Sequence record: NC_133255.1
Length of the DNA stretch: 64,000 bases
Reading direction: 5' to 3' (one strand)
Source: Escherichia phage vB_EcoS-26175I
This document shows, piece by piece, positions 7,905 through 20,442 of the stretch (positions within the stretch are counted from its first letter, which is position 1; each line of letters starts with the position of its first letter). A program made the position numbers and the translations under genes. The notes beneath the pieces are model-generated. The model was given only the letters and a program-made list of their open reading frames with translations. It made no database searches and had not been told where the DNA came from.

Positions 7905-7980
7905 GCCACGGATCGAACGTGGAACCTTCGGAGTCAGAGGCCGACGATCTGCCAATTGATCTACATCCCAATAATTTTTT
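7905..7980 (-). tRNA. tRNA-Gln (anticodon CTG)
   Basis: T-arm ccacg-gatcgaa-cgtgg, perfect acceptor tgggatg/catccca, loop ctCTGac. Confidence 0.6.
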
Positions 7981-8179
7981 ATTCTACAGGAACCGTGGCG
8001 ATTGGATCAGGTTCTTCTAGACGTTTACCATTATGATCAACACGAATAATACCACAACCCTCACAGATTACAACAGCACCATAGCCTTCTTTAACTTCGG
8101 CTTCTGTAATCAGCCCAGAAAGATCACCAGTATCTTTTCCCCACATATCAATGGAACATTCTTTGCAGAAATCAGCCAT
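7979..8179 (-). CDS. Cys-rich small protein (zinc-ribbon-like)
   Basis: 66 aa with CxxC...CxxC. Confidence 0.3.
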   Translation of the reverse strand: MADFCKECSIDMWGKDTGDLSGLITEAEVKEGYGAVVICEGCGIIRVDHNGKRLEEPDPIATVPVE

Positions 8180-8676: not shown

Positions 8677-8766
8677 TGGCAGAAGATAATGGAGTCGAAC
8701 CATCACCGTATCACTACAGCGGGCCGGTTTTCAAGACCGGTTACGTACCACTACGTCCTATCTTCT
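8677..8766 (-). tRNA. tRNA-Ser (anticodon TGA), long variable arm
   Basis: 87-nt body; acceptor agaagat/atcttct; anticodon stem ccggt/accgg, loop ctTGAaa. Confidence 0.7.
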
Positions 8767-9121
8767 ATTGTTCGTATATTACAAAGTTTACAGATTCAGA
8801 GTAATAACCATTACTAGAACCATGCCATTTAACGGTTACACAGCCTTTAGCTGTGGCAAACTTATACCATGTATGGGTTACTGAATCCCAATCTTCTGTA
8901 GCGTGTGTGATTACTTCCTCTGCTTCTATGATTGGATAACCTAAAAGGTCATGTAAATCACCAATAATATCATCTATATGAACATCTTCACAGCAGTCCT
9001 GCTCATGATAAAACTTATAGTTCTTACCATCAGTACAAATGAAGATAAGAGTATCTTGGTCTTGGCATACATTAGTAAAAATTTTGCCAAGCATTTCATT
9101 ATAGATTGTCACTTCTGACAT
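8765..9121 (-). CDS. hypothetical protein
   Basis: 118 aa ORF. Confidence 0.35.
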   Translation of the reverse strand: MSEVTIYNEMLGKIFTNVCQDQDTLIFICTDGKNYKFYHEQDCCEDVHIDDIIGDLHDLLGYPIIEAEEVITHATEDWDSVTHTWYKFATAKGCVTVKWHGSSNGYYSESVNFVIYEQ

Positions 9122-9143
9122 ATTAGTTTCCTAGTAAGTTGTT

Positions 9144-9233
9144 TGGCGGAAGAAGAGAGATTCGAACTCTCAAGCCGTTTTACCAGTCAGCCACTTTCCA
9201 AGCGGTTTTCGTCACCTATCGATTTGCTCTTCC
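9144..9233 (-). tRNA. tRNA-Ser (anticodon GGA), long variable arm
   Basis: 87-nt body, T-arm gagag-attcgaa-ctctc; anticodon loop ttGGAaa. Confidence 0.5.
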
Positions 9234-9407
9234 GTAGATCTCAGGATTAAATCATAAACTTCATTAGCGGATACTGGAAGTATGAGATTATACATCTTTT
9301 GGTCATACCTCTGACCATACTCTATAAACACATACTCTTTAGTTAATGTATTAACAGCTAACCAGATATCAGTTATAGGAGTTTTCATCATGAGTTAATC
9401 CAATGTT

Positions 9408-9488
9408 TGGTAGGGATGGAGGGACTCGAACCCACACCCGAAGACTAGAACCTAAATCTAGCGCGTCTGCCAATTTCGCCACATCCCC
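9408..9488 (-). tRNA. tRNA-Leu (anticodon TAG), short variable region
   Basis: 78-nt body; anticodon stem ctaga/tctag perfect, loop ttTAGgt. Confidence 0.5.
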
Positions 9489-9495
9489 ATTTTAT

Positions 9496-9714
9496 TTAGT
9501 TAGAAATAAATAATAATCCCGCAACAATAGAACCTACGCCACTGAATACCATTATCAGCATAGCTTCTAAGCTGATAAAGCGGACAGTATATGGAGCGCC
9601 CCAAGAATAATCAGTAAAGAAAGTTTTCTTTTCTTTAGCTAAATCTTTAATAGTTCTAAAATAGATAGCTAGTGCTAAAGCTGCAAGAACTACAGAGGCT
9701 GCTAAGAATACCAT
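9496..9714 (-). CDS. small membrane protein
   Basis: 72 aa, two hydrophobic segments. Confidence 0.3.
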   Translation of the reverse strand: MVFLAASVVLAALALAIYFRTIKDLAKEKKTFFTDYSWGAPYTVRFISLEAMLIMVFSGVGSIVAGLLFISN

Positions 9715-9733
9715 ATTATTTCCTTAATTTGTT

Positions 9734-9809
9734 TGGTGGAGTCACTCAGAATTGAACTGAGTTCCACTGCTTGCAAGGCAGTAAGTTTAACCAAATAACC
9801 TATGACCCC
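9734..9809 (-). tRNA. tRNA-Ala (anticodon TGC)
   Basis: T-arm ctcag-aattgaa-ctgag; anticodon stem actgc/gcagt, loop ctTGCaa. Confidence 0.7.
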
Positions 9810-9814
9810 GAATT

Positions 9815-9893
9815 TGGTGGAGAATAAGAGATTCGAACTCTTCTGATATCCTCGGTGCAAGCGAGGTGTCCACTCCAAGCAGACCCATTCCCC
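9815..9893 (-). tRNA. second tRNA with anticodon TGC (Ala-like), 7-nt variable loop
   Basis: T-arm aagag-attcgaa-ctctt; anticodon stem cctcg/cgagg perfect, loop ctTGCac; atypical positions 8-9. Confidence 0.45.
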
Positions 9894-9902
9894 AAAATTT
9901 AT

Positions 9903-10166
9903 TTATTCTCTATACATATCGAGAACAGTTGCTACAATCTGAGCTTCTAGCCTAGCAATATCTTTATTCACTATATCAGATTCTACTACTAAGTGATTAT
10001 ATATTGCTTCAGTTTTAGCAAGATCTATATCAGATAGTTTATTAAGACTATTATAATACTTAGCATTATTGCAACGTTTCTTCATATCGGAAACTCGTTT
10101 ATGGAGGGTTCTTTGTTGATAACGTTGCGACATTAGTTTCTTAGCCATATCTTTAAGATCAAACAT
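9903..10166 (-). CDS. hypothetical protein
   Basis: 87 aa ORF. Confidence 0.3.
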   Translation of the reverse strand: MFDLKDMAKKLMSQRYQQRTLHKRVSDMKKRCNNAKYYNSLNKLSDIDLAKTEAIYNHLVVESDIVNKDIARLEAQIVATVLDMYRE

Positions 10167-10431
10167 AGATATTCCTTCTAGTTTACTAAGGCTATTAGCT
10201 CGGTGTGCGTATTACCCTCAGACATTAGCCAGTAGAGGATAACCGCTCTTCACAAACCCGATACACTATTCAGTTGCCGCTGAATCTAGTGGACTAATCT
10301 AGAACTTATTGCAAAGTATCCCCTGCCATTAGGGGTCTAATTGCAATTGTGCTTTTTGGCAGCCAGTCCTAGGTCGAGCTAATACCTTAGTGAACTTTGA
10401 TGAGGATTTCTCCTCATCAATTTATATAAAT

Positions 10432-10460
10432 ATTATAACAAGAAATTAAGCATCAAGCAA
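10432..10460 (-). promoter_or_regulatory. sigma70-type early promoter (TTGCTT-17-TATAAT)
   Basis: conserved element; followed leftwards by ~260 nt without annotated ORF. Confidence 0.55.
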
Positions 10461-10812
10461 GTACATTTTTAGCGATTTCTTGTAGTTCCTTAACGTCGCT
10501 AACGAAAAGGTAATCAGAGCTTCCAGAGTGCATACTCTGCATAACCACACCATCCTCTGGTGCATCTTCCTTCAAAGTAAGTCCTAACCAGAACTTGGCA
10601 AAACCAGGTGTTACCTCACCTTGACTTGCCTTGAACACATCGCCTTCTGTGATCTCTTGACCAGTAGAGAGTCCCATGTATGGTACGTTCAGATCAATAT
10701 CTTTGTAGAACTCAGCTAGATCTTGCTCGAAATCCCAACCTTTAGAGATAGCGAACTCCATTGTTACATGACCGAAATAGCCTTGAACCTTGCTTGATAA
10801 TTGCATTTGCAA
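10453..10812 (-). CDS. hypothetical protein
   Basis: 119 aa ORF. Confidence 0.35.
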   Translation of the reverse strand: MQMQLSSKVQGYFGHVTMEFAISKGWDFEQDLAEFYKDIDLNVPYMGLSTGQEITEGDVFKASQGEVTPGFAKFWLGLTLKEDAPEDGVVMQSMHSGSSDYLFVSDVKELQEIAKNVLA

Positions 10813-10831
10813 TTCCTTATTTTGAGTTAAT

Positions 10832-10905
10832 TGGTACTCGGTGATAGAATCGAACTATCGCAACCGCCGTGTAAAGACGGGGTTCTCCCATTAAACTAAC
10901 CGAGT
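10832..10905 (-). tRNA. tRNA-Val (anticodon TAC)
   Basis: perfect acceptor actcggt/accgagt, T-arm gatag-aatcgaa-ctatc, loop ttTACac. Confidence 0.7.
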
Positions 10906-10909
10906 AATT

Positions 10910-10987
10910 TGGTGGATTGCCTGGGATTCGAACCCAGAACTGACGGATTAAAGGTCCGCTACTCTTATCCAGTTGAGCTAGCAATCC
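10910..10987 (-). tRNA. tRNA-Lys (anticodon TTT), loop ccTTTaa with C33
   Basis: perfect acceptor and T-arm (ctggg-attcgaa-cccag); anticodon loop has C at position 33. Confidence 0.55.
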
Positions 10988-11451
10988 AATTTTTCTACTA
11001 ATAATTTAAAAGCATCTAGTACAGGTACTTCAAACCATTCTCCAGATACTCTATAATCTTTAAGAAGATTATGTAATTCTTTCTCTGTACGTCTTTTATC
11101 AGACGAAAATCTGAAATGGTATAGCTTGTAGTCTCTATTAGGTGAATAAGTTTGATAACTTGCTAACCTCTCATTCACATCTATAGTCATACCTATTTTA
11201 TACATGCCTGGCCATGCTGGATTACCAATTACATATACAAAACCTTCCGTTATAGGTATTTTATGCTCCCTTTTATACTTTAAGAGATTTAAGGCTGCCA
11301 TTCGATAACAGAATCTAAACTCTGAAGTTTTTAACTTACCTTCTTTACCCGAAATTTCGTTATATTTGCTCATATAAGCTCTTATGAGCTTATCATCTAT
11401 AATGAAGTTATCAGGAAGGTTTAAGGCAGCTAAAACTTTATTAATTAGCAT
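10978..11451 (-). CDS. T5orf172-type (GIY-YIG-like) domain protein
   Basis: motif GFVYVIGNPAWPGMYKIGMT...R...Y typical of the T5orf172/MUG113 GIY-YIG-like fold. Confidence 0.5.
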   Translation of the reverse strand: MLINKVLAALNLPDNFIIDDKLIRAYMSKYNEISGKEGKLKTSEFRFCYRMAALNLLKYKREHKIPITEGFVYVIGNPAWPGMYKIGMTIDVNERLASYQTYSPNRDYKLYHFRFSSDKRRTEKELHNLLKDYRVSGEWFEVPVLDAFKLLVEKLDC

Positions 11452-11626
11452 AGACTTCCTTAATAGAATAAACTTTTAAGTAAGGGTGATTAATACCAAA
11501 TTCCGCCATCACTTCGTTTTCATCTTTACCGTAATGGGCTAGTGGATACTTCTTACGATCTTTGCTAGAACGTAGATCACTTACTTTTAAACGAAATAAT
11601 TTCATTTCGAAATCCTTCTATTAAAT

Positions 11627-11704
11627 TGGAAGCGGGTGCAGGAATCGAACCTACCTCTTTCTAGCTTATGAGACTAGCGATCTCTACCAGAGATCTAACC
11701 CGCA
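11627..11704 (-). tRNA. tRNA-Met (anticodon CAT)
   Basis: T-arm with aatcgaa loop; anticodon loop ctCATaa; 1-72 pair mismatched. Confidence 0.6.
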
Positions 11705-11710
11705 ATTGTT

Positions 11711-11788
11711 TGGTCTCCGTGGGAGGATTTGAACCCCCGACCCTACCGCCCCAAACGGAACGCTCTGGCCAAACTGAGCTACACGGAG
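11711..11788 (-). tRNA. tRNA-Pro (anticodon TGG)
   Basis: perfect acceptor ctccgtg/cacggag; loop ttTGGgg. Confidence 0.6.
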
Positions 11789-12100
11789 AATATTCTTTGT
11801 TAACTCACTTTATAAAATATATTATACAGATATTTAAGCATAATAGCAAATGAGTTTTTAATAAATTTACTTATTGCGTAGGCCACCTCACGCTTCAAAC
11901 GCTCTGCTGACAAAGAAGTTTGCGAGACTTCTCTTAAATGCCAGAATAGACCCGCCGATCTATCGGAACCTACTCAATAAGTAAACTTTCGTTTACCTAC
12001 ACCTACCTGGTCGGGAGGATTTTCAGCGACTAGAACCGGCCGGAAACTCATCGCCTTGTTTATCTAGGAGTCCGTTCTCTAGGAAGCAGAAACCTAAATT

Positions 12101-12174
12101 TGGTGCGGTCGGAGGGAATCGAACCCTCAACTTCTGGTTGGCAACCAAAAATTATACCTTTTAACTACGAACGC
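12101..12174 (-). tRNA. tRNA-Gly (anticodon GCC)
   Basis: T-arm gaggg-aatcgaa-ccctc; loop ttGCCaa. Confidence 0.6.
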
Positions 12175-12312
12175 ATAATAAGTCAATCTAGGCAGGACTT
12201 GAACCTGCTATCACTTGTGCGGATTTACGAGAACCATTCTTTCACTCGAATCGAACGAGCTTCTACCCTCGGCAAGCTGGTGTCCCCTCTCCACCACGCT
12301 AGAATGTTTAAT

Positions 12313-12390
12313 TGGTACACCTGCTGAGATTCAAACTCAGGATCTTCCGATTAAGAGTCGGTTGCTTTAAGTCAACTAAGCTACAGATGC
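12313..12390 (-). tRNA. tRNA-Lys (anticodon CTT)
   Basis: T-arm ctgag-attcaaa-ctcag; D-arm gctt/aagc; loop ctCTTaa. Confidence 0.55.
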
Positions 12391-12930
12391 ATTTATATCT
12401 TTATAGGACTTACCAGCCAGTCTTGTATAGCGTTTTCGCAAACCATTATCTGACATGCCCAATTCTCTAGAAGCTCTAGACCATGAGTAATTTTTAACCC
12501 AGTACTCTATTTGTTCTACAGTAATTTCTTGTGGATTTTGACAGTGCTGTTTGCAGTAACTAGCTCTTTTAGCTATTTCTTTGTTGCAAATAGGACAGAA
12601 ATTTTTATCTGAACTTAATCCACGTTCTTCTATAGTTTTGAGAATATGATCAGCTTTACTTCGTACAATCAGATTTTCAAGAGAGAAATTTAGTTTATTT
12701 GTATCATCATGATCTACTTCTAAGTCAGAACTCAAAGATGGTAGATCTTTGTATACTCTCGCTAATACTCTGTGTAATAGAAGATGTTTTGATTTTCCAT
12801 TATGTTGAACAGTAAAGAAAGGATACCCAGAAGTATTAATCTGTATTGAAAGTATACGATTAACTTTAGTACTAAATACTTCCCCAGTCTCACTTATTAA
12901 GTATTCTGGATATTCGGGTATTTCTTTCAT
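12376..12930 (-). CDS. free-standing HNH homing endonuclease
   Basis: 184 aa; HNH-type motif LLLHRVLA...EVDHDDTNKLNFSLENL; embedded in tRNA array. Confidence 0.6.
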   Translation of the reverse strand: MKEIPEYPEYLISETGEVFSTKVNRILSIQINTSGYPFFTVQHNGKSKHLLLHRVLARVYKDLPSLSSDLEVDHDDTNKLNFSLENLIVRSKADHILKTIEERGLSSDKNFCPICNKEIAKRASYCKQHCQNPQEITVEQIEYWVKNYSWSRASRELGMSDNGLRKRYTRLAGKSYKDINASVA

Positions 12931-12947
12931 TACTGTTCCTTATAATT

Positions 12948-13024
12948 TGGCGCGACCGATGGGATTCGAACCCACATTCTCTCCCGTGACAGGGGAGTAC
13001 CATTACCAAGCCAGCCCCGATCGC
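12948..13024 (-). tRNA. tRNA-Asp (anticodon GTC)
   Basis: T-arm atggg-attcgaa-cccac; anticodon stem ctccc/gggag perfect, loop ctGTCac. Confidence 0.8.
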
Positions 13025-13033
13025 ATAATTTGT

Positions 13034-13219
13034 TTACTCAGCTTTGAGTTTTTCGATAGCTTCCTCAACCTCTTTTAGAGCTTCACGACGCTCTACTTGA
13101 CCTTGAAGTTCTTCAAGAAGTTCAGCTTTCAGAGCCTTAATAATATTACCACGAACCTTAATATTATTAATCAGATTATCACGATCAGCTTCTAGTCGAG
13201 CAATTGCACGAGTTGTCAT
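13034..13219 (-). CDS. hypothetical coiled-coil small protein
   Basis: 61 aa ORF. Confidence 0.3.
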   Translation of the reverse strand: MTTRAIARLEADRDNLINNIKVRGNIIKALKAELLEELQGQVERREALKEVEEAIEKLKAE

Positions 13220-13246
13220 ATCTATTTCCTCAGTTGTTAGTGAAAT

Positions 13247-13332
13247 TGGCGGGCCGTGTAGGAGTTGAACCTACTTTATCCTTGCGGATACGGATTAACA
13301 GTCCGGCGCTTAAACCGTTCAGCCAACGGCCC
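13247..13332 (-). tRNA. tRNA-Asn (anticodon GTT) with unusually long variable arm
   Basis: 83-nt body, perfect acceptor gggccgt/acggccc, T-arm gtagg-agttgaa-cctac; loop ctGTTaa; variable hairpin atcc-ttgc-ggat. Confidence 0.5.
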
Positions 13333-13339
13333 TAAAATT

Positions 13340-13415
13340 TGGACGACCGCATGAGATTCGAACTCACATAAGGAGGTTTTGCAGGCCTCCGCCTAAGCCA
13401 TTCAGCCAACGGTCG
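13340..13415 (-). tRNA. tRNA-Cys (anticodon GCA)
   Basis: T-arm atgag-attcgaa-ctcac; anticodon stem ggagg/cctcc; loop ctGCAaa. Confidence 0.65.
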
Positions 13416-13593
13416 ATTTATCTTGTTTTTCGAGATTAGTAAATTCTAAGTCTTTGGAATGCCCTATAGATCTAGCATAATAACCATCTCCAGCATCGTA
13501 GCCTGATTTACCACACTCACACATCTTAAACTCCCGATAACGAGTGAATATATGCTCAGAACCACAACACTTAAATTTAACTAACATTTTCAT
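13402..13593 (-). CDS. hypothetical Cys-containing small protein
   Basis: 63 aa ORF. Confidence 0.3.
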   Translation of the reverse strand: MKMLVKFKCCGSEHIFTRYREFKMCECGKSGYDAGDGYYARSIGHSKDLEFTNLEKQDKSTVG

Positions 13594-13832
13594 GAAACAC
13601 GCTCCGGTAGATCTTCTAATTTATACTCAGTAGCTACATTAGTAGCGTCTAGTAATAAACCCATATGTTTAAGGATTTTAGTAATAGATTCGCCTTCAGC
13701 TTCTTCTACAAAAGTGCGTAGTTGAATGAAGTCAATACCACCATCCATACCAGAGAAAATGTTTAGTAAGCGAAGCATTACCAGCTTACGTTCTTTTAAT
13801 TCTTGTTCTGTCATGTTGCTTCTCCAGTTCAA
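13590..13832 (-). CDS. hypothetical protein
   Basis: 80 aa ORF; promoter 13844-13872 upstream. Confidence 0.3.
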   Translation of the reverse strand: MNWRSNMTEQELKERKLVMLRLLNIFSGMDGGIDFIQLRTFVEEAEGESITKILKHMGLLLDATNVATEYKLEDLPERVS

Positions 13833-13843
13833 TTTATGTAATA

Positions 13844-13872
13844 ATTATACAGAACTTTAAGGATTTAAGCAA
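13844..13872 (-). promoter_or_regulatory. sigma70-type early promoter
   Basis: attata 13844-13849, aagcaa 13867-13872. Confidence 0.5.
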
Positions 13873-14152
13873 CTACATTTTTCAGAAATTTGATGCCTTT
13901 CTTTTTCTTCTTATATTTCCACGTTAACGGGTTCTGTCGATTATGAACGCTTGAGATCTTTGTCTCGTCAAAGTTCTTCAATACCATGTAATCACATGCC
14001 AACTGCTCTAGTGGAATGGTTTCTCCATCAAAAGCATAAACATAAGGCTGTTGACTAGCACGATAATGATAGACTTTGTTAATTCTACATTTCAGCGACT
14101 TATCCGCGCAGTAAATAAAGAAGTTTTCAGGATGCATCAGCATCTCCTTCAA
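13865..14152 (-). CDS. hypothetical protein
   Basis: 95 aa ORF. Confidence 0.3.
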   Translation of the reverse strand: MKEMLMHPENFFIYCADKSLKCRINKVYHYRASQQPYVYAFDGETIPLEQLACDYMVLKNFDETKISSVHNRQNPLTWKYKKKKKGIKFLKNVVA

Positions 14153-14154
14153 AT

Positions 14155-14229
14155 TGGTGCACCCTGTTCGTATCGAACGAACCTCTCAAGCTCTTCAGGC
14201 AAGCGCTAATCCATCTCAGCTAAAGGTGC
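14155..14229 (-). tRNA. tRNA-Phe (anticodon GAA), weak anticodon stem
   Basis: T-arm gttcg-tatcgaa-cgaac; standard register gives loop ctGAAga; anticodon stem has two U-U mismatches. Confidence 0.5.
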
Positions 14230-14235
14230 AAATAT

Positions 14236-14312
14236 TGGCAAACCTACTAGGACTCGAACCTAGACCGTACGGTTTTGGAGACCGACATGCTGTCCAGTAA
14301 CACTCTAGGAAT
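14236..14312 (-). tRNA. tRNA-Trp (anticodon CCA)
   Basis: T-arm ctagg-actcgaa-cctag; loop ctCCAaa; acceptor has mismatches. Confidence 0.5.
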
Positions 14313-14320
14313 GCAGAAAT

Positions 14321-14397
14321 TGGCGTCCTGTGCGGGGATCGAACCCGCAAATCCTACCTTGAAAGGGTAGTGACTTTACCAGTTTGTCTAACAGGAC
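14321..14397 (-). tRNA. tRNA-Glu (anticodon TTC)
   Basis: perfect acceptor gtcctgt/acaggac, T-arm gcggg-gatcgaa-cccgc, anticodon stem ctacc/ggtag; loop ctTTCaa. Confidence 0.75.
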
Positions 14398-14404
14398 TTA
14401 AATT

Positions 14405-14486
14405 TGGTGGGGGATGGAGGACTCGAACCTCCGCGTGGTATACCCGGTCTACAGCCAGGCGCCGTCGCCACTGAGCCAATCCCCCC
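14405..14486 (-). tRNA. tRNA-Tyr (anticodon GTA)
   Basis: 79-nt body, perfect acceptor gggggat/atccccc, T-arm ggagg-actcgaa-cctcc; loop ctGTAga. Confidence 0.65.
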
Positions 14487-14676
14487 CTATTTGAATGAAA
14501 AGTAAGTCGGTTAAACTCAAGGTGGAATATTTCAGGATTTCCTGACTTTACCCCTAAAAGTCAACTCGCTTAATTACTTCTCATTCAGATATGTTTCCAA
14601 ATTAGATAACTATTATATCAAGTTTTATGGCACTGAGCAAGTCAAATTTTAAAGAACTTGCTCAGTGCTGTATTAG

Positions 14677-14952
14677 TTAGTCGAACTTAGGAGTGACAGT
14701 TAAGGAGAACGGAAGTTCAAAAACTTCTTCACCCTCATCACTAACAGTGATTACACGACCTTTAAGTTCAGACATTGAAATATCAATATCAGCTTTTGCA
14801 TCTGGAGCCATGCCAGCTTCAACACATTTAGCTTTAATTTCCGGCAGAAGTTCTACATCATAGAAATAAAGCCATTCAATCTCACCTTCCCAGCCTTCCC
14901 AGGATTTACAGATTGCACTTTCAATACCAGTTGTTATAACACGATTTTGCAT
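14677..14952 (-). CDS. hypothetical protein
   Basis: 91 aa ORF; promoter 14983-15012 upstream. Confidence 0.35.
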   Translation of the reverse strand: MQNRVITTGIESAICKSWEGWEGEIEWLYFYDVELLPEIKAKCVEAGMAPDAKADIDISMSELKGRVITVSDEGEEVFELPFSLTVTPKFD

Positions 14953-14982
14953 TCGTTAACTCCTTCATCAATTTATATAACT

Positions 14983-15012
14983 ATTATACCAGAAATTTAA
15001 AGCAAAAGGCAA
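14983..15012 (-). promoter_or_regulatory. sigma70-type early promoter
   Basis: conserved element upstream of 14677-14952. Confidence 0.5.
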
Positions 15013-15042
15013 GTACATTTTTAAAAATTCTGTTTGGAGGAG

Positions 15043-15249
15043 CTAAACTCCAGATTCTTCAGCCAGATCAAGCCCAACCAATGTGATTGCCATAATAGCC
15101 GCGCCATGTTCTTTCTCTCCTAGCTCTTTGGCTTGAGTGAGAATATTTAGGAACTGCTTGTGGAAATCTTCCACTTCTTCTGTCATGCCTGCTTCAGAAA
15201 TAATACCTTTCAGCATAAAGCGCTGTGCAGTAATTTCAGGATTAGCCAT
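15043..15249 (-). CDS. hypothetical protein
   Basis: 68 aa ORF. Confidence 0.3.
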   Translation of the reverse strand: MANPEITAQRFMLKGIISEAGMTEEVEDFHKQFLNILTQAKELGEKEHGAAIMAITLVGLDLAEESGV

Positions 15250-15400
15250 TTATTATCTCCAGTTATTTAGAATGTAAGCCAAACTTAGGATCATAGCGAT
15301 CATAAGTCGTACCATTAGTTGAAGTCTTGATGCTATGAAAACGACAGTACATAAATTTACGTAGTGCTTTCTTAATAGCTTTCATTTTATTTCCTTAATT

Positions 15401-15478
15401 TGGTAGGGGTGGTGGGATTCGAACCCACAAAACCTGAATTTTAAGTCCAGTACCTATGCCAATTCGATTACACCCCCA
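15401..15478 (-). tRNA. tRNA-Leu (anticodon TAA), short variable loop
   Basis: T-arm gtggg-attcgaa-cccac; loop ctTAAaa; type-I length is unusual for Leu. Confidence 0.5.
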
Positions 15479-15486
15479 TGTAATCT

Positions 15487-15834
15487 TTAGAGTTCGTAAC
15501 CCTGAATATATCGAGCAAAACCAGTAATCTCGAACTGAATTGCCCATGCTACTTCCATATGCTCAATCTTACTAAAATGAGCGTCAGACTGTTCTAGGAA
15601 ATAACGAGAGATTATAGGGAACTCAATGTCAAAATCTTCCTTATCCATACCATAGAAGAAGTTTCCAGAAATATTACGAACTTCACGAAAGAAATCCTCA
15701 ATCTGAAAATCCATCAGAGGATAAGTATATTCCTCTTTGCTATCATCCGTTTGGAAGAAGCGGAAATGCACAAGGCAAGAGCCAATCAGATTTACTGCTG
15801 GAGTAGTGTAAATATCCATGTTAACCTCGATCAA
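15487..15834 (-). CDS. hypothetical protein
   Basis: 115 aa ORF. Confidence 0.35.
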   Translation of the reverse strand: MIEVNMDIYTTPAVNLIGSCLVHFRFFQTDDSKEEYTYPLMDFQIEDFFREVRNISGNFFYGMDKEDFDIEFPIISRYFLEQSDAHFSKIEHMEVAWAIQFEITGFARYIQGYEL

Positions 15835-16006
15835 TATCTAGAGAAATTCCAAATTCTGGATTAATACCAGAACCATTACATGCTGCGCATTCCCACTCTT
15901 CAAAACGCATATCGCCAGGTTCAGCATCATTAATAGTACCTGTTCCATGGCAGTGAGTACACATGCACTCTTCTAGTTCTTGTTTAAGCTCTTGAAACTT
16001 AGACAT
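15821..16006 (-). CDS. small Cys-rich protein (two CxxC pairs)
   Basis: 61 aa; CTHCHGTG...CAACNGSG. Confidence 0.3.
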   Translation of the reverse strand: MSKFQELKQELEECMCTHCHGTGTINDAEPGDMRFEEWECAACNGSGINPEFGISLDIDRG

Positions 16007-16023
16007 ATAGTCTCCTAGTTAAT

Positions 16024-16102
16024 TGGTGGCTCCCGGAGGATTCGAACCTACCTACCTTTCGCTTATGAGGCGACGGCTCATACCAAATGAGCTTGAGAAC
16101 CA
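16024..16102 (-). tRNA. tRNA-Met (anticodon CAT)
   Basis: T-arm with attcgaa loop; D-arm gctc/gagc; loop ctCATaa. Confidence 0.55.
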
Positions 16103-16106
16103 AATT

Positions 16107-16196
16107 TGGAGGAAGAAGTGGGAATCGAACCCACAAGGCTATGTTTCAAACCGACAGATTAGCAATCTGCTGCAATACCGTTATGCTATTCTTCCT
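16107..16196 (-). tRNA. tRNA-Ser (anticodon GCT), long variable arm
   Basis: 87-nt body, perfect acceptor ggaagaa/ttcttcc, T-arm gtggg-aatcgaa-cccac; loop ttGCTaa. Confidence 0.7.
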
Positions 16197-16705
16197 TAAT
16201 TATTTCGGGCATATTCCCCATGAAGTTTCTCTCTCAGTTGAATTAGAGCTTCATTTGCTGCTTCAGGAGTACTGTGCAGCCCTGCGGAGTATGACTTACC
16301 TTTAAACATTATTCTATCCTGCCACTGACCAGATGCTTTGTGGTAGGATACTCCCTTAAATCCGCTAGTATTCCTAGAAGATTTACTAGCATTATGAGTA
16401 TTAGTGGTACTATCCGCTGCTCTTAAATTTAAAGGATGTATGTTTAACTTATTGCAGTCTTTATGATCAATCATTTCCGGCCTATACCCATAATATAGTA
16501 TAAATACTATGATATGAGCTAAGTAATCTTGGTGATCAACGTTAACTCTGATATACCCAGAGCTTTTGTGCAAAGATCCCGCAGGTTTATTGGCAAACTT
16601 AGTATTAAATATCTTCTCCTCTCTGGAGTTTCCGGAGAGCGGATTCCACACCAGTACACCATCTTCTAAACGGAATCTATAAAGTATAGACTCATAGTCT
16701 AGCAT
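16196..16705 (-). CDS. free-standing HNH homing endonuclease with AP2-like DNA-binding region
   Basis: 169 aa; IDHKDCNKLNIHPLNLRAA (HNH) followed by SGFKGVSYHKASGQWQ. Confidence 0.55.
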   Translation of the reverse strand: MLDYESILYRFRLEDGVLVWNPLSGNSREEKIFNTKFANKPAGSLHKSSGYIRVNVDHQDYLAHIIVFILYYGYRPEMIDHKDCNKLNIHPLNLRAADSTTNTHNASKSSRNTSGFKGVSYHKASGQWQDRIMFKGKSYSAGLHSTPEAANEALIQLREKLHGEYARNN

Positions 16706-16738
16706 AAATAGTTCCTAATCTTACAAATTTATGAATAT

Positions 16739-16767
16739 ATTATACAGAAAATTTCGGCATTAAGCAA
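16739..16767 (-). promoter_or_regulatory. sigma70-type early promoter
   Basis: attata 16739-16744, aagcaa 16762-16767. Confidence 0.55.
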
Positions 16768-16775
16768 GTGAAATT

Positions 16776-17072
16776 TTACTGAACATTGCACTGATATACC
16801 TGTTTGATACGTGTCACTGACTTCTTAGTTGGGTTGATAGAAGAACCCTGCCACCAACGTGATTCTGAGCTGAGAACAGCACCAGGAACAGCTTGTTCTT
16901 TTGGCAGAACAATATCAAAACACTGTTCACCCATATTATCTTTAATGTGCGACCAAATGTCTAGAGTAAATCGTTCTAGCTTATTACAAACTTGAACTTG
17001 ACAAAGTTCCTGTTGTGGAGCAGCAAATACAGAAGTAGATACTAGAGTCAATGCAAGTACAATGCGTTTCAT
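16776..17072 (-). CDS. secreted small protein (signal peptide)
   Basis: MKRIVLALTLVSTSVFAAPQ signal peptide; promoter 17103-17131. Confidence 0.35.
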   Translation of the reverse strand: MKRIVLALTLVSTSVFAAPQQELCQVQVCNKLERFTLDIWSHIKDNMGEQCFDIVLPKEQAVPGAVLSSESRWWQGSSINPTKKSVTRIKQVYQCNVQ

Positions 17073-17102
17073 ATTTGATTCCTCTCTCAAATTTATAAAT
17101 AT

Positions 17103-17131
17103 ATTATACAGAAATTTTCTATATTAAGCAA
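17103..17131 (-). promoter_or_regulatory. sigma70-type early promoter
   Basis: attata 17103-17108, aagcaa 17126-17131. Confidence 0.55.
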
Positions 17132-17139
17132 GTGAAAAT

Positions 17140-17170
17140 TTCTGTATAATAGCCCTCGCTTAGAGGGCTA
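17140..17170 (-). terminator. hairpin downstream of pnuC
   Basis: stem agccctc / gagggct, loop gctta. Confidence 0.4.
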
Positions 17171-17178
17171 TAGCTACT

Positions 17179-17871
17179 TTATTTGTTAACGCGTACAAAG
17201 TATCCTTTATAGGCTCCCATAATAGAGTTACCTAAGAATACTAGCCACATTGCTAGGATTGCATAAGATGCACCTGTAGATTGAGTAGTTACAAGCCAAA
17301 TGTACACAGTACCAATGTTAATAGCAATCCAGATCAGCCACTGCTCGGCATACTGCTTAACCATAAGCCACATAGCGATCACACTACCTACCGCAGTAAA
17401 TGCATCCAACATTGGGAATGGATCAGCCGTAGTAGCTAAGAAACTACCATACCCTAACGTGGCTACTGCTAGAATCCCTAGAGTCAGCAGAGCTTGGACT
17501 TTAGTCAGAATCTTAGTTGGAACATCTGGCAGATTACTTGGCTTATTTTTATGCCATAAGTACATTCCATAAAACTGCATAGGAACGTAGTATAGCAGGT
17601 TTAGTGCAGCGTTACCATAAAGATCTGCGTTTAAAGCTGTAATACCATAGGTAAGAACACCAACTAAGCCCCAAATATAGTTAGAAACACGTCCTTTAGC
17701 AACCAAAATAACACAAACTACGTTGGTTATCGCAGTAGCCCAATCTAGAGCTGTACCATTATAGTTTGCTAAACTAATAAAGGCGACTGCCATAAACAGC
17801 CACAGATATTCCAAAGGTTTCCAGTTTTTAAAGTCATTTACAAGATAGTTAGTCATATTAAAACTCTCCAA
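17179..17871 (-). CDS. pnuC: nicotinamide riboside transporter PnuC-like membrane protein
   Basis: 230 aa polytopic membrane protein, Trp-rich TM helices, immediately downstream of the NadR-like gene. Confidence 0.6.
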   Translation of the reverse strand: MESFNMTNYLVNDFKNWKPLEYLWLFMAVAFISLANYNGTALDWATAITNVVCVILVAKGRVSNYIWGLVGVLTYGITALNADLYGNAALNLLYYVPMQFYGMYLWHKNKPSNLPDVPTKILTKVQALLTLGILAVATLGYGSFLATTADPFPMLDAFTAVGSVIAMWLMVKQYAEQWLIWIAINIGTVYIWLVTTQSTGASYAILAMWLVFLGNSIMGAYKGYFVRVNK

Positions 17872-18913
17872 CGTTAAAGTGATGAATCAGCCAGTCTACT
17901 GCGTTTACTGCTTCGTCCATACGAACTTTGTAGTCCGGGGAGTCGATGTAAACAGTACGTCCTTCAGGGAACTGATTTGGAAATTCTTTCTTCATCTGCT
18001 CGAACAGTTCAGAAGTAATTGAACGATCGGAGTTAATACGTAAACCATCATCTACCCACTTGACAGTAGGCGCTAGAACAATTACTAAATCGTAATGTTC
18101 TTCTTTTGCAATTGCTGTAACCACAGGATTCTTACGATGTTCATAAAGTCTGTGGTAGAACTCAGTAATAAAAGCATTTGTATCCACAAACATGATCTTA
18201 TTTGCAGTACGTTCTGCTTCAAACTCTAGCTCTTTGTGTCTGAACGCAATTTTACTATAATCTTCGCTGGTAAGCAGATTTTCGTTACCAACTAGATCAA
18301 CTTCACAATACGTTCGACCATATTCTTCTACCCACGAAGTGTTGTATAGCTTCGCAAGGTATTTTGTTAAAGTAGTCTTTCCCGAGCTTTCAGTCCCAAT
18401 GAGTACAACCTTACGCACGTAATCTTTACGAACTACGCTAGGAAGAAACTCCCAATACTTCATAAGATCATTACGAATCATTGTAGCTGAGATTGGAACA
18501 CGAGTCCGATCAGAATCTACAATATAATGACCAAACTTCGGCAGATATTTCTTATATTCTGCATCATAGTCTAGTTCGCTAGAGAAAATGGTGATCTCAG
18601 GCAAATGTCCATAATTTTCATTAAGGATTCTAGCATATTCCGGCCAACCATTCGGATATTCAGGAATATCATCTTCAATAATGTACTCTACCGAAACGTG
18701 CTCAATATCCGCGTAAGTTTGTTCTAACCAACGAAGACGATTCTTTAACTGTAATACTTCCTGATCACGTGTGTTCTGCTTATCCAGCCAACGATTATCA
18801 TGACTAACTACAATAATAACTCGTTCACACATAGTTGCTGCTGTGTTTATTAGGTTAATATGACCACGCGTTAATGGTGCGAACTTACCAATTACTAGAC
18901 CAGTCTTAATCAT
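17858..18913 (-). CDS. nadR: NadR-like bifunctional NMN adenylyltransferase / ribosylnicotinamide kinase (no HTH domain)
   Basis: N-terminal nucleotidyltransferase motif GKFAPLTRGH; C-terminal Walker A GTESSGKTT; Met start at 18913 with SD and promoter 18944-18972. Confidence 0.75.
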   Translation of the reverse strand: MIKTGLVIGKFAPLTRGHINLINTAATMCERVIIVVSHDNRWLDKQNTRDQEVLQLKNRLRWLEQTYADIEHVSVEYIIEDDIPEYPNGWPEYARILNENYGHLPEITIFSSELDYDAEYKKYLPKFGHYIVDSDRTRVPISATMIRNDLMKYWEFLPSVVRKDYVRKVVLIGTESSGKTTLTKYLAKLYNTSWVEEYGRTYCEVDLVGNENLLTSEDYSKIAFRHKELEFEAERTANKIMFVDTNAFITEFYHRLYEHRKNPVVTAIAKEEHYDLVIVLAPTVKWVDDGLRINSDRSITSELFEQMKKEFPNQFPEGRTVYIDSPDYKVRMDEAVNAVDWLIHHFNVGEF

Positions 18914-18943
18914 GTTTGATTCCTCTCTCAAATTTATAAATAT

Positions 18944-18972
18944 ATTATACAGAGAATTTAGCATTCAAGCAA
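18944..18972 (-). promoter_or_regulatory. sigma70-type early promoter driving nadR-pnuC
   Basis: attata 18944-18949, aagcaa 18967-18972. Confidence 0.55.
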
Positions 18973-19110
18973 TCGAATTTTTAAACTTTTTAGTGGAAAA
19001 ATCTCAAGGCATTTAGTGGTAGCACGTTGTTGCTGCAATAATAGTATATGATTCTAAAGAATTAAATACTAAAGACCTTAGTTGAATAACTTATGGGATT
19101 TTCTTTTACC

Positions 19111-19152
19111 TTAAATACAGAAAAGCCCGCGCTCTCGGAGGAAACGCGGGCT
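19111..19152 (-). terminator. rho-independent terminator downstream of SPFH gene
   Basis: stem agcccgcg / cgcgggct followed on minus strand by tttctgtattt. Confidence 0.55.
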
Positions 19153-19176
19153 TGTTTCGAAGATTACGTGGAACTA

Positions 19177-20121
19177 TTACTTATTACGCATATCCATAAT
19201 CATTTGACCATCGTAGCCAGTACCGACAACAGTCTGCGGTACACCACCTTGGTATTTTTCAGCACGAAGCATTTCAACTTCCAGCTGCTTCCAACGAATC
19301 ATTTCAGGAGTAATGGTACGTTGCAGAGCGGCGTTAGCTTCAGCTTCTTTCTTAGCTGCGTACAGTTTAGCATCTGCGTCACGTTCGTTAGCTACTGCCA
19401 TGTTTTCACGAGCGGAACGATCTGCCTCAGCTTGCTTAACTTTCTGCTGTGCTTCTTGTTCAACACGAGCCAGTTCAGCTTTTGCAGCGTTAACTTGTTC
19501 TTCACGAACTTTAGTGTTCTGTACCTGTTCCATGATTACCGGTGGCAGAGTAATATCCTGAAGGAATACTTGCTTAACCGTGTAACCATAAGGACGCGCG
19601 TACTCTTCTACCTCTTGCTGAATAGCAGTTTGCAGTTGAGCCTGAATCTTAGCGTCGAACAGATCTTGTGCTTTTGGTACGGACTTACCAAACTCACGAA
19701 TCGTAGACAGCATCTTCTCTTCAACGTATTTGTTCAGAGCCTGATCCTGAGTACCTGCGTTAACACGGTTCATAGGAGCTTTAGCACCATCAAACTGCAA
19801 CATAACGGTAATGTCAACAGTAGACTTAAACTTATCCTGGCTAGGAACCTGAAGTTTATCCAGTTTCATGGAAATATCTTTCGTACTAAAAGTATCAAAA
19901 GAAGCAAATGGGTTAACAATATGGAAGCCTGGCAATACAGGATTAGGGCTAACTTTACCCAGGAAGGTTTGAGTCTTAACAGTACCATCCTGAACAACTG
20001 TATAGGAATTGAGAGCCAGAATAAGAGCACCAAGACCAACAGCAGCACCAACACCCCAACGTTTAATAGTACGAATTACTTTTTGCTCAGAAGTCAGTTC
20101 TTTAGTGTTTTTAGTAAACAT
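19177..20121 (-). CDS. SPFH/band-7 (prohibitin/HflC-like) membrane protein
   Basis: N-terminal TM, SPFH-like core, C-terminal Ala/Glu/Gln-rich coiled coil; terminator hairpin 19111-19152 downstream. Confidence 0.65.
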   Translation of the reverse strand: MFTKNTKELTSEQKVIRTIKRWGVGAAVGLGALILALNSYTVVQDGTVKTQTFLGKVSPNPVLPGFHIVNPFASFDTFSTKDISMKLDKLQVPSQDKFKSTVDITVMLQFDGAKAPMNRVNAGTQDQALNKYVEEKMLSTIREFGKSVPKAQDLFDAKIQAQLQTAIQQEVEEYARPYGYTVKQVFLQDITLPPVIMEQVQNTKVREEQVNAAKAELARVEQEAQQKVKQAEADRSARENMAVANERDADAKLYAAKKEAEANAALQRTITPEMIRWKQLEVEMLRAEKYQGGVPQTVVGTGYDGQMIMDMRNK

Positions 20122-20132
20122 ATATTTCCTTA

Positions 20133-20333: not shown

Positions 20334-20359
20334 TTTATTTTCCTAGCAGTTAATAAAAT

Positions 20360-20434: not shown

Positions 20435-20442
20435 AGAATAAA

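What the first reader, a model, noticed from the sequence alone, without database searches (positions are those of the whole stretch)
12376..16705. Two free-standing HNH endonuclease genes inserted within the tRNA array
HNH ORFs at 12376-12930 and 16196-16705 each abut a tRNA gene; the first overlaps the 5' end of tRNA-Lys(CTT) and the second ends at the start of tRNA-Ser(GCT). This juxtaposition suggests homing or intron-less homing near tRNA genes and may drive variation in the array between related phages.
Basis: partly seen in the sequence, partly recalled or inferred. Interest (0 to 1): 0.45.

Follow-up and report, generated by a model that had tools for sequence, protein, structure and literature searches.

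The report
Homing endonuclease genes inside phage tRNA array
Two intact HNH homing-endonuclease genes sit in the tRNA gene cluster of a T5-like coliphage and are patchily distributed among its relatives; this kind of selfish element is already known from phage T5, so the finding is correct but ordinary.

Summary
The window is Escherichia phage vB_EcoS-26175, a T5-like Epseptimavirus. ORF 12376-12930(-) has NUMOD4 and HNH_3 domains and overlaps tRNA-Lys(CTT) by 15 nt. ORF 16196-16705(-) has HNH_3 and a weak AP2 match, and ends one base before tRNA-Ser(GCT). Catalytic residues are intact in both.

The homing interpretation is supported by comparison, not by the juxtaposition, because ORFs and tRNAs are tightly packed all along this array.
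- HNH1 occurs at >=99% identity in only 16 of about 560 related phage records. HNH2 occurs at >=95% in 56.
- Each lies in a sharply bounded cassette, 12310-12942 and 16131-16715.
- The HNH1 cassette is 99.4-100% identical between phages whose flanks are 87-98% identical.
- Each cassette includes a strongly divergent allele of the downstream tRNA.
- Relatives show empty sites, other small ORFs, a paralogous HNH one slot over, and one chimeric dead tRNA-Asp.

This is the known T5 F-TflI/II/IV and T4 SegB phenomenon. HNH1 is a 57% paralogue of F-TflII in a different slot. I rate it a new member of a known kind, of low to moderate interest.

Cleavage and target sites remain untested.

The parts
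12376..12930 (-). HNH1: free-standing HNH homing-endonuclease gene, 184 aa. Domains are NUMOD4, HNH_3, a Cys4 cluster (C112, C115, C126, C130) and a C-terminal region shared with T5 F-TflI/II/IV. An AAGGA ribosome-binding site lies 7 nt before the ATG.
   Evidence: It is 57% identical to T5 hegD/F-TflII. It is not annotated in MK907269.
12313..12390 (-). tRNA-Lys(CTT), allele A. Its first 15 nt encode the last four codons and the stop codon of HNH1. It is very different from allele B carried by HNH1-less phages.
   Evidence: Rfam tRNA score is 59.3 bits, against 64.8 and 63.9 for allele B. Allele A is found in 33 phage records and allele B in about 250.
12310..12942 (-). HNH1 cassette: 17-nt spacer, HNH1 and tRNA-Lys(CTT)-A. 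This is the segment with no homology in HNH1-less relatives. It is bounded by the 3' ends of tRNA-Asp and tRNA-Lys.
   Evidence: Breakpoints at 12306-12309 and 12941-12944 in rutana, Eps7, 1Sgal2PP and S132. The cassette is 99.4-100% identical in all five HNH1+ relatives examined, against 86.7-98% in the flanks.
12948..13024 (-). tRNA-Asp(GTC), common allele. It is the upstream neighbour of HNH1. Other phages carry a divergent tRNA-Asp allele preceded by a paralogous HNH.
16196..16705 (-). HNH2: free-standing HNH homing-endonuclease gene, 169 aa, with HNH_3 and an AP2-like DNA-binding module. An AGGA ribosome-binding site lies 7 nt before the ATG. Some relatives annotate it by transfer as 'F-TflVI'.
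   Evidence: pN/pS is 0.05-0.07 between its two allele groups.
16107..16195 (-). tRNA-Ser(GCT), allele A, 89 nt. It starts one base after the HNH2 stop codon. HNH2-less Epseptimaviruses carry a 94-nt allele B.
16131..16715 (-). HNH2 cassette: 5' UTR, HNH2 and the 5' 65 nt of tRNA-Ser(GCT)-A. This segment is absent from HNH2-less relatives.
   Evidence: Breakpoints at 16130 and 16716 in 118970_sal2, Sds2 and Eps7. The next-ranked HNH2-less records listed start to align at the same position 16716.
16716..16778 (-). Promoter-type repeat (TTGCTT, 17 nt, TATAAT) immediately upstream of HNH2. In empty-site phages the same promoter abuts tRNA-Ser directly. It corresponds to the T5 P15a/P15b early promoters ('repeat c').
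   Evidence: Sequence. T5 annotation. Repeat copies. The simple consensus scan did not list it.
10978..11451 (-). It overlaps tRNA-Lys(TTT) 10910..10987 by 10 nt.
   Evidence: E 1.3e-18. It is present in 7 of 14 sampled genomes, always with its own tRNA-Lys(ttt) allele. It is not annotated in MK907269.

Best explanation
Both ORFs are free-standing (intron-less) HNH homing endonucleases of the type known from the phage T5 tRNA region (F-TflI/II/IV). Each is part of a small mobile cassette that also contains the tRNA gene just downstream.

Shown here:
- The genes are intact and have complete active-site motifs.
- HNH2 is under strong purifying selection.
- Both are patchily distributed among closely related phages and assort independently of each other.
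- Each occupies a sharply bounded segment, for which relatives have an empty site or a different occupant.
- The HNH1 cassette, with about 100-200 nt on either side, is nearly identical in otherwise diverged backgrounds.
- Each nuclease gene is accompanied by a strongly divergent but well-formed allele of the next tRNA.

Inferred:
- In a mixed infection the enzyme nicks or cuts the nuclease-less genome in or next to the corresponding tRNA gene or intergenic site.
- Recombinational repair from the nuclease-bearing genome then copies in the nuclease gene together with its linked tRNA allele.
- The carrier's own allele escapes cutting because its sequence differs.
- HNH2 is transcribed from the tRNA-Ser promoter, as the leader of the tRNA precursor. 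HNH1 is co-transcribed within the tRNA transcript.
- RNase P cutting at the tRNA 5' end would remove the HNH1 stop codon. This is the expression-limiting device proposed for T4 SegB and the T5 F-Tfl enzymes.
For: Identity of the phage: 100% match to Escherichia phage vB_EcoS-26175, Epseptimavirus.

Domains and motifs.

Relation to T5: HNH1 is 57% identical over its full length to T5 hegD = F-TflII. In T5, F-TflII overlaps tRNA-Gln2 and F-TflI overlaps tRNA-Ser2 in the same way.

Patchy distribution: HNH1 is >=99% identical in 16 records, then 57%. HNH2 is >=95% identical in 56 records, then <60%. About 560 records share the array.

Independent assortment: Sds2 and 118970_sal2 have HNH1 only. 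PMBT26, 1Sgal2PP and SE3 have HNH2 only.

Breakpoints and alternative occupants.

Cassette versus flank identity: in 118970_sal2 there are 4 differences in the 633-nt cassette against 79 in the next 558 nt.

Linked tRNA alleles. tRNA pairs that differ in whether a nuclease lies upstream have a median identity of 68%. Pairs with no nuclease have 97.5%, and pairs that both have one have 100%. All alleles score as good tRNAs.

Selection: HNH2 pN/pS is 0.05-0.07.

Recombination scar: the tRNA-Asp of phage smaug is a chimera of the two alleles, joined in the shared anticodon arm.

Literature: the F-Tfl HNH enzymes of T5 are recognised homing endonucleases and the main source of differences among T5-like genomes (PMC10644984). 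Their ORFs lie in the tRNA cluster, and tRNA processing is proposed to limit their expression (PMC2330249).
Against: No cleavage, target site or biased inheritance has been measured for these two proteins.

Linkage between nuclease and tRNA allele is not exclusive. tRNA-Lys(ctt)-A occurs in about 17 records without HNH1. tRNA-Ser(gct)-A is the normal allele of T5, which lacks HNH2. The divergent tRNA may therefore be a pre-existing allele into which the nuclease inserted, rather than an evolved immunity allele.

Some tRNAs with no adjacent nuclease in the sample are also polymorphic, for example Tyr, Ile, Glu and Pro.

Counts are database records, which include RefSeq/GenBank duplicates and four isolates of this same phage. 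The pairwise comparisons are not independent.

An IMG/VR scan found no further copy of HNH1.
Confidence: 0.8

Rival explanations
1. The nucleases are kept because they benefit the phage, not only themselves. By cutting in or near tRNA genes they might stimulate recombination that amplifies or reshuffles tRNA and anti-defence genes under pressure from tRNA-cleaving host defences. This was shown in 2026 for the GIY-YIG enzyme SegB in the T6 tRNA cluster. It is compatible with homing rather than exclusive of it.
For: SegB drives segmental amplification of tRNA-Tyr and is widely co-located with tRNAs. Whether HNH enzymes do the same is stated to be unknown (PMC13096335). T5-type tRNAs counter retron and other tRNA-targeting defences. 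HNH2 is under strong purifying selection, with 22% synonymous divergence between its allele groups, so it is long-lived and not a decaying parasite.
Against: No tandem amplification is present in this window or in the sampled relatives. HNH1 is rare, at 16 records, and nearly invariant. That pattern fits recent selfish spread better than a broadly useful function.
Confidence: 0.2
2. The pattern reflects vertical descent with repeated deletion. The nuclease genes and their tRNA alleles would be ancestral to one sub-lineage of Epseptimavirus and simply lost elsewhere, with no active mobility.
For: Deletions do occur in the array, as in smaug and the T5 st0 deletion. The two HNH2 allele groups differ by 22% at synonymous sites, which suggests long residence.
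Against: The HNH1 cassette is 99.4-100% identical in backgrounds whose adjacent DNA differs by up to 13%. HNH1 and HNH2 assort independently. Nuclease-less genomes carry a different, intact tRNA allele rather than a deletion scar. Breakpoints are identical in many genomes.
Confidence: 0.08
3. The ORFs are inactive relics, or repurposed DNA-binding proteins that have lost nuclease activity.
For: HNH1 is not annotated in the source record. The AP2 match in HNH2 is below the Pfam cut-off. The HNH2 match to I-HmuI is weak (E 0.72).
Against: The active-site D-H...N...H/N residues are complete in both. The reading frames are full-length in every copy examined. Both have ribosome-binding sites. HNH2 is under strong purifying selection.
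Confidence: 0.04

Closest known systems
Phage T5 F-TflII (hegD, T5.061), with its relatives F-TflI (hegC) and F-TflIV (hegA). Reference: Akulenko et al. 2004, Mol Biol (Mosk) 38:632, cited. The paper itself was not readable here.
   Same: HNH1 is 57% identical to F-TflII over its full length. It has the same NUMOD4, HNH and C-terminal DNA-binding layout. It is a free-standing gene inside the tRNA cluster on the tRNA strand, with its 3' end and stop codon inside the next tRNA gene. The overlap is 23 nt for F-TflII, 14 nt for F-TflI and 15 nt here.
   Different: The slot differs. F-TflII precedes tRNA-Gln(CUG) in T5. That slot holds only a 66-aa ORF in this window, and HNH1 precedes tRNA-Lys(CTT), a tRNA that ARAGORN did not find in the T5 region examined. 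Identity is at paralogue level. The target site is unknown.
'F-TflVI', the label that some T5-like genome records give to the HNH2 orthologue
   Same: The HNH2 orthologues in YZU-L1, mar003J3 and vB_SenS-3 carry this product name.
   Different: The name is transferred by annotation. I found no experimental description of F-TflVI in the searchable literature. Outside the 56 near-identical copies, the best matches are below 60% identity.
I-HmuI (PDB 1u3e), the HNH homing endonuclease of Bacillus phage SPO1. It belongs to His-Me finger group 2 (HNH_3) of Jablonska et al. 2017 (PMC5714182).
   Same: It has the same N-terminal sheet and HNH core. HNH1 aligns over residues 4-87 with E 6e-6. The catalytic D-H and N positions are conserved. 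NUMOD and AP2 modules are typical of this group.
   Different: I-HmuI is encoded in a group I intron and nicks the intron-less DNA polymerase gene. The enzymes here are free-standing and lie between tRNA genes.
T4/T6 SegB, a GIY-YIG homing endonuclease in the T-even tRNA cluster
   Same: It is a free-standing nuclease gene embedded in a phage tRNA cluster. It cuts within tRNA genes of a related phage and causes preferential inheritance of the tRNA region. Its mRNA is proposed to be cut at the stop codon by tRNA processing (PMC2330249; PMC13096335).
   Different: It belongs to a different nuclease superfamily (GIY-YIG, not HNH) and a different phage family. Its amplification role has been shown only for SegB.

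Membership tests
HNH_3 / I-HmuI-like His-Me finger homing endonucleases (group 2) | HNH_3 domain scoring above the Pfam curated cut-off | tested here: met
   HNH1 scores 24.9 bits against a cut-off of 24.8, which is marginal. HNH2 scores 34.4 against 24.8. PHROG HNH families match at E 9e-27 and 8.5e-51.
HNH_3 / I-HmuI-like His-Me finger homing endonucleases (group 2) | Catalytic Asp-His general-base pair and the metal-binding Asn or His of the beta-beta-alpha-metal motif. In I-HmuI these are D74, H75 and N96; the roles of these residues are recalled from Shen et al. 2004, which I did not read here. | tested here: met
   HNH1 has D73, H74 and H95. HNH2 has D80, H81 and N102. Positions come from the HMMER alignments to 1u3e. 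The HNH2 alignment is weak (E 0.72), but the motif columns match.
HNH_3 / I-HmuI-like His-Me finger homing endonucleases (group 2) | Modular DNA-binding domains attached to the nuclease core (NUMOD, AP2 or helix-turn-helix) | tested here: met
   HNH1 has NUMOD4 at 27.1 bits against a cut-off of 23.4. Its C-terminal 45 aa are shared with F-TflI/II/IV. For HNH2 the evidence is weaker: AP2 scores 23.6 against 33.3, below the cut-off, and there is a weak match to a plant AP2 structure.
HNH_3 / I-HmuI-like His-Me finger homing endonucleases (group 2) | Site-specific nicking or cleavage of DNA | not testable with these tools
   This needs purified protein and substrate DNA.
Free-standing (intron-less) homing endonuclease genes | Sporadic presence among closely related genomes, with precise presence/absence boundaries between conserved genes | tested here: met
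   16 and 56 records of about 560. Breakpoints are at 12310/12942 and 16131/16715. Empty sites are seen in Eps7, Sds2 and 118970_sal2.
Free-standing (intron-less) homing endonuclease genes | The element and its short flanks are more similar between genomes than the surrounding DNA, the signature of recent transfer with co-conversion | tested here: met
   For HNH1 the cassette is 99.4-100% identical against flanks of 86.7-98%, and the identical tract ends about 100-200 nt outside the cassette. For HNH2 the picture is mixed: 94.5-99.8% against 84% downstream and 97% upstream.
Free-standing (intron-less) homing endonuclease genes | The nuclease cuts the allele that lacks it, and the carrier's own allele is resistant | not testable with these tools
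   The sequences are consistent with this. The adjacent tRNA allele differs at roughly 30 of 76 positions from the allele of nuclease-less phages. However, allele A also exists without the nuclease.
Free-standing (intron-less) homing endonuclease genes | Preferential inheritance of the element in mixed infection | not testable with these tools
   This needs phage crosses.
Orthologue of T5 F-TflII (hegD) | Same genomic slot, upstream of and overlapping tRNA-Gln(CUG), with orthologue-level identity | tested here: not met
   HNH1 lies between tRNA-Asp and tRNA-Lys(CTT). The tRNA-Gln(ctg) slot of the window holds only ORF 7979..8179. Identity is 57%. HNH1 is a paralogue within the F-Tfl family, not F-TflII itself, despite that label in YZU-L1 and 100268_sal2.

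The most novel reading that the evidence does not exclude
The tRNA array of T5-like phages may be an arena of competing 'nuclease plus private tRNA allele' cassettes. On this reading each nuclease (HNH1, HNH2, the tRNA-Asp-linked HNH, the T5orf172 ORF, F-TflI, F-TflII) specifically cuts the rival isoacceptor allele and carries a resistant allele.

Nuclease traffic, rather than codon-usage or host-defence selection, would then be the main driver of tRNA-repertoire turnover. It would occasionally destroy tRNAs, as in the chimeric tRNA-Asp of smaug.

It might also purge neighbouring anti-defence genes. None of the 56 HNH2+ records carries the anti-retron gene Rad, which sits beside the same tRNA-Ser in T5, rutana and S132.
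Probability: 0.3. Interest if true: 0.5.

Novelty: new member of a known kind. Interest (0 to 1): 0.27.

Why it matters
The finding adds two uncharacterised members, one of them unannotated in its own GenBank record, to the small F-Tfl family of homing endonucleases that live in phage tRNA clusters.

The comparative picture gives concrete, testable predictions. It specifies which DNA to offer as substrate (tRNA-Lys(CTT)-B, tRNA-Ser(GCT)-B and the empty sites) and which phage pairs to cross.

It also has practical relevance. T5-like Salmonella and E. coli phages are used for biocontrol and therapy. Such nucleases make cocktail members exchange tRNA and anti-defence genes, and they confound whole-genome phylogeny.

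It does not change how these elements are understood.

Tried and rejected
1. Juxtaposition as evidence of homing: rejected as diagnostic. ORFs end 1-11 nt from, or overlap, the next tRNA all along the array.

2. Strict one-to-one linkage of HNH1 with tRNA-Lys(ctt) allele A: rejected. Allele A is in 33 records and HNH1 in 16. SE3, mar003J3 and smaug carry allele A without HNH1.

3. HNH2 and Rad as alternative occupants of exactly the same slot: refined. Rad lies upstream of the P15b-type promoter, between two promoter repeats. HNH2 lies downstream of that promoter. They could in principle co-occur but do not in the 56 HNH2+ records.

4. The nuclease-linked tRNAs as pseudogenes: not supported. 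Rfam scores are 59-63 bits and the cloverleaves are normal. The T5 annotation does mark the F-TflII-overlapped tRNA-Gln2 as a pseudogene.

5. An IMG/VR scan for HNH1 relatives found none.

6. The original F-Tfl paper (PMID 15456135) is not held, so statements about F-Tfl cleavage sites rest on citing papers only.

7. The consensus promoter scan did not list the promoter upstream of HNH2, because its -35 matches only 3 of 6 positions. I identified it by homology to annotated T5 promoters instead.

8. Structure prediction and the large protein-database searches were not run. They would not have changed the verdict.

Full report
**What the window is.** The 5-kb stretch around the finding is 100% identical to Escherichia phage vB_EcoS-26175 (MK907268-71). 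This is a T5-like siphovirus of Demerecviridae, Markadamsvirinae, genus Epseptimavirus. About 560 phage records share this DNA at 80-99% identity. ARAGORN finds 31 tRNA genes, all on the minus strand, from 6463 to 21667, interspersed with small ORFs. Transcription therefore runs from high to low coordinates.

**Check of the observation.** Both ORFs exist exactly as described.

- HNH1 (12376-12930, minus strand, 184 aa) matches Pfam NUMOD4 and HNH_3 above their cut-offs. PHROG HNH families match at E 9e-27.
- HNH2 (16196-16705, minus strand, 169 aa) matches HNH_3, with a sub-threshold AP2 match. Its PHROG match has E 8.5e-51.
- The last 15 nt of HNH1 (GCA TCT GTA GCT TAG) are the first 15 nt of tRNA-Lys(CTT).
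- The HNH2 stop codon ends one base before tRNA-Ser(GCT).
- Aligned with the solved HNH homing endonuclease I-HmuI (1u3e), both keep the Asp-His pair and the metal-ligand position. These are D73/H74/H95 in HNH1 and D80/H81/N102 in HNH2.
- Both have Shine-Dalgarno sequences 7 nt before the ATG.

- Tight ORF-tRNA spacing is general here. Eight unrelated ORFs end 1-11 nt before a tRNA and two overlap one. Juxtaposition alone says little.
- There is a third nuclease-like ORF in the array, 10978-11451 (T5orf172/MUG113, E 1e-18). It overlaps tRNA-Lys(TTT) by 10 nt.

HNH1 and this third ORF are missing from the GenBank annotation of the phage. My guess, not checked, is that the annotation pipeline dropped ORFs that overlap tRNAs.

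**Distribution.**

- A translated search of 50,697 phage records finds HNH1 at >=99% identity in 16 records. These represent about ten distinct phages, including four isolates of this one. The next best match drops to 57%, which is T5 hegD = F-TflII.
- HNH2 is >=95% identical in 56 records and below 60% everywhere else.
- The two genes assort independently. Sds2 and 118970_sal2 have only HNH1. PMBT26, 1Sgal2PP and SE3 have only HNH2. Eps7, rutana, S132 and T5 have neither.

**Anatomy of the sites.** I fetched 13 related genomes and mapped tRNAs and nuclease homologues. Homology with HNH1-less phages stops at 12306-12309 and resumes at 12941-12944. The variable segment is therefore a 17-nt spacer, HNH1 and tRNA-Lys(CTT), bounded by the 3' ends of two tRNAs.

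Relatives have one of the following in its place:

- a 192-nt ORF plus a different tRNA-Lys(CTT) (rutana, S132);
- a 72-nt spacer plus that other allele (Eps7);
- tRNA-Asp and tRNA-Lys directly adjacent, with a 43%-identical paralogous HNH sitting one slot upstream and overlapping a divergent tRNA-Asp (1Sgal2PP, PMBT26, SE3, mar003J3).

For HNH2, homology stops at 16130, inside tRNA-Ser(GCT), and resumes at 16716. The next-ranked HNH2-less records listed start to align at that same position.

- In empty-site phages a promoter of the T5 P15 type abuts the tRNA directly.
- In this window HNH2 is inserted between that promoter and the tRNA. It is therefore the first gene of the tRNA-Ser/tRNA-Met transcript.
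- In T5, rutana and S132 the anti-retron gene Rad (T5 ORF071; PMC10644984) lies just upstream, between two copies of the promoter repeat.
- None of the 56 HNH2+ records has any insertion there.
- The window has no Rad homologue.

**Signature of transfer.** The HNH1 cassette is 99.4-100% identical in all five HNH1+ relatives examined, while neighbouring DNA is 86.7-98% identical. In 118970_sal2 there are 4 differences in the 633 cassette bases and 79 in the next 558. The near-identical tract ends about 100-200 nt beyond the cassette, as expected for co-conversion of flanks.

HNH2 exists as two allele groups. They differ at 22% of synonymous sites but only 1.2-1.5% of non-synonymous sites (pN/pS 0.05-0.07). 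It is therefore a constrained, functional protein.

**Linked tRNA alleles.** The tRNA immediately downstream of each nuclease gene is a very different allele from the one in nuclease-less phages, although the anticodon loop is the same.

- This holds for HNH1 with tRNA-Lys(CTT) and for HNH2 with tRNA-Ser(GCT), where the alleles are 89 and 94 nt.
- It holds for the T5orf172 ORF with tRNA-Lys(TTT) and for the paralogous HNH with tRNA-Asp.
- It holds for T5 F-TflII with tRNA-Gln(CUG) and F-TflI with tRNA-Ser(GGA).
- Across 14 genomes, tRNA pairs that differ in whether a nuclease lies upstream have a median identity of 68%. Pairs with none have 97.5%, and pairs that both have one have 100%. These pairs are not independent, so the accompanying P value is only descriptive.
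- All alleles look like working tRNAs, with Rfam scores of 46-65 bits.

The linkage is not exclusive.

- tRNA-Lys(CTT)-A is in 33 records and HNH1 in only 16.
- tRNA-Ser(GCT)-A is the normal allele of T5 and most Tequintaviruses.
- Several tRNAs without adjacent nucleases are also polymorphic.

The divergent tRNA may therefore be an evolved resistant site, or simply the allele into which the nuclease first inserted and which is now dragged along.

Phage smaug shows what this traffic can cost. Its tRNA-Asp is a chimera of the two alleles, joined in the shared anticodon arm. Its acceptor-stem halves do not match and ARAGORN does not call it as a tRNA.

**Mechanism.** The best-supported reading is intron-less homing. 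The enzyme nicks or cuts the nuclease-less genome at or near the tRNA or intergenic site during co-infection. Repair then copies in the nuclease gene and its neighbouring tRNA allele.

Steps shown here are gene integrity, patchiness, exact boundaries, conserved cassette with co-converted flanks, allele linkage, purifying selection and a recombination scar. Steps inferred are the cleavage itself, its site, resistance of the carrier allele and biased inheritance.

RNase P cutting at the tRNA-Lys 5' end would remove the HNH1 stop codon. This is the same expression-limiting arrangement proposed for T4 SegB and the T5 F-Tfl enzymes (PMC2330249). It is not tested here.

A non-exclusive alternative is a benefit to the phage through nuclease-stimulated amplification or reshuffling of tRNA and anti-defence genes. 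This was recently shown for SegB and is explicitly left open for HNH enzymes (PMC13096335). No amplification is visible in these genomes.

[quoted passage not shown] F-Tfl-type genes are recognised as the main source of differences among T5-like genomes.

- HNH1 belongs to this family but is not F-TflII. It is 57% identical and sits in a different slot. The tRNA-Gln(CUG) slot is empty in this window.
- The HNH2 orthologues are labelled 'F-TflVI' by annotation transfer. I found no experimental account of that enzyme.
- Both fit His-Me finger group 2, the I-HmuI-like enzymes with NUMOD or AP2 modules.

**Verdict.** It is a new member of a known kind, of modest interest.

The most novel defensible extension treats the array as a battleground of 'nuclease plus private tRNA allele' cassettes. 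These would drive tRNA turnover, break tRNAs and perhaps purge Rad. That would be more interesting, but it needs cleavage mapping and crosses.

Noticed in passing
window 10978-11451 (-), with tRNA-Lys(ttt) 10910-10987: A third nuclease-like mobile ORF lies in the tRNA array. It has a T5orf172/MUG113 domain (GIY-YIG-like) and is 157 aa. It overlaps the tRNA 5' end by 10 nt and is not annotated in MK907269. It is present in 7 of 14 sampled genomes, always with its own tRNA-Lys(ttt) allele. A homologue in T5 (T5.069) and in phage 2-3 sits in a different slot, between tRNA-Cys and tRNA-Asn.
   Followed up: partly
window 31585-32100 (-) and 60919-61428 (+): Two further HNH_3 ORFs (171 and 169 aa), distantly related to HNH2, lie outside the array. 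One is next to a ribonucleotide-reductase beta-like ORF (30431-31576). The other lies between an SbcC-like ATPase ORF (59009-60922) and ORF 61428-61910. They are probably further free-standing homing endonucleases.
   Followed up: partly
L016 (Salmonella phage smaug, MT074461) about 5578-5660: tRNA-Asp is a chimera. Its 5' half comes from the common allele and its 3' half from the HNH-linked allele, joined in the shared anticodon arm. The acceptor-stem halves do not pair and ARAGORN does not call it as a tRNA. This phage appears to have lost a functional tRNA-Asp through recombination at the nuclease hot spot.
   Followed up: partly
window 16716-17178; compare L008 9017-9601, L012 6103-6688, L013 11205-11789: The anti-retron gene Rad (T5 ORF071, Toprim-like) is absent from the window. 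In T5, rutana and S132 it lies just upstream of tRNA-Ser(gct), between two copies of a promoter repeat of about 55 nt. None of the 56 HNH2-bearing records has an insertion there, so HNH2 and Rad do not co-occur in the database.
   Followed up: partly
window 11809-11861, 16724-16778, 17069-17141: A repeat of about 55 nt carries a TATAAT box. It corresponds to the T5 'repeat c' and early promoters P15a/P15b. There are several copies per genome. They may act as recombination substrates for gain or loss of the genes between them.
   Followed up: no
window 21594-21667 (-); also 9144-9233 and 9815-9893: ARAGORN calls a tRNA-SeC(tca) that scores only 33 bits with the Rfam tRNA model. In T5 the corresponding region is annotated as a pseudo-tRNA. 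Two other ARAGORN tRNAs, Ser(gga) and the second Ala(tgc), do not reach the Rfam gathering score.
   Followed up: no
L009 5811-5880 (tRNA-Ser(gct) allele B of HNH2-less Epseptimaviruses): This allele is 87.5% identical to the tRNA-Ser of several phages that I take to be FelixO1-like (Felixounavirus) myoviruses. It is unlike the T5-type allele carried by the window. This hints at exchange of tRNA genes between phage families.
   Followed up: no
window 13402-13593 (-) and 8765-9121 (-): Two ORFs that are not nucleases also overlap the 5' end of the next tRNA. The first overlaps tRNA-Cys by 14 nt and the second overlaps tRNA-Ser(tga) by 2 nt. ORF-tRNA overlap is therefore a general feature of this compact array.
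   Followed up: yes
L006 (Salmonella phage 2-3) 2620-2988: In phage 2-3 the slot that holds tRNA-Gly(gcc) in the window holds a 122-aa classical HNH-domain ORF instead. A 51%-identical homologue sits before tRNA-Phe in rutana. This is another nuclease-associated difference in tRNA content.
   Followed up: no
window 17179-18964 (-): PnuC-like nicotinamide riboside transporter and NadR-like NMN adenylyltransferase/kinase genes lie directly upstream of the tRNA block. They are conserved in the Epseptimavirus relatives examined.
   Followed up: no
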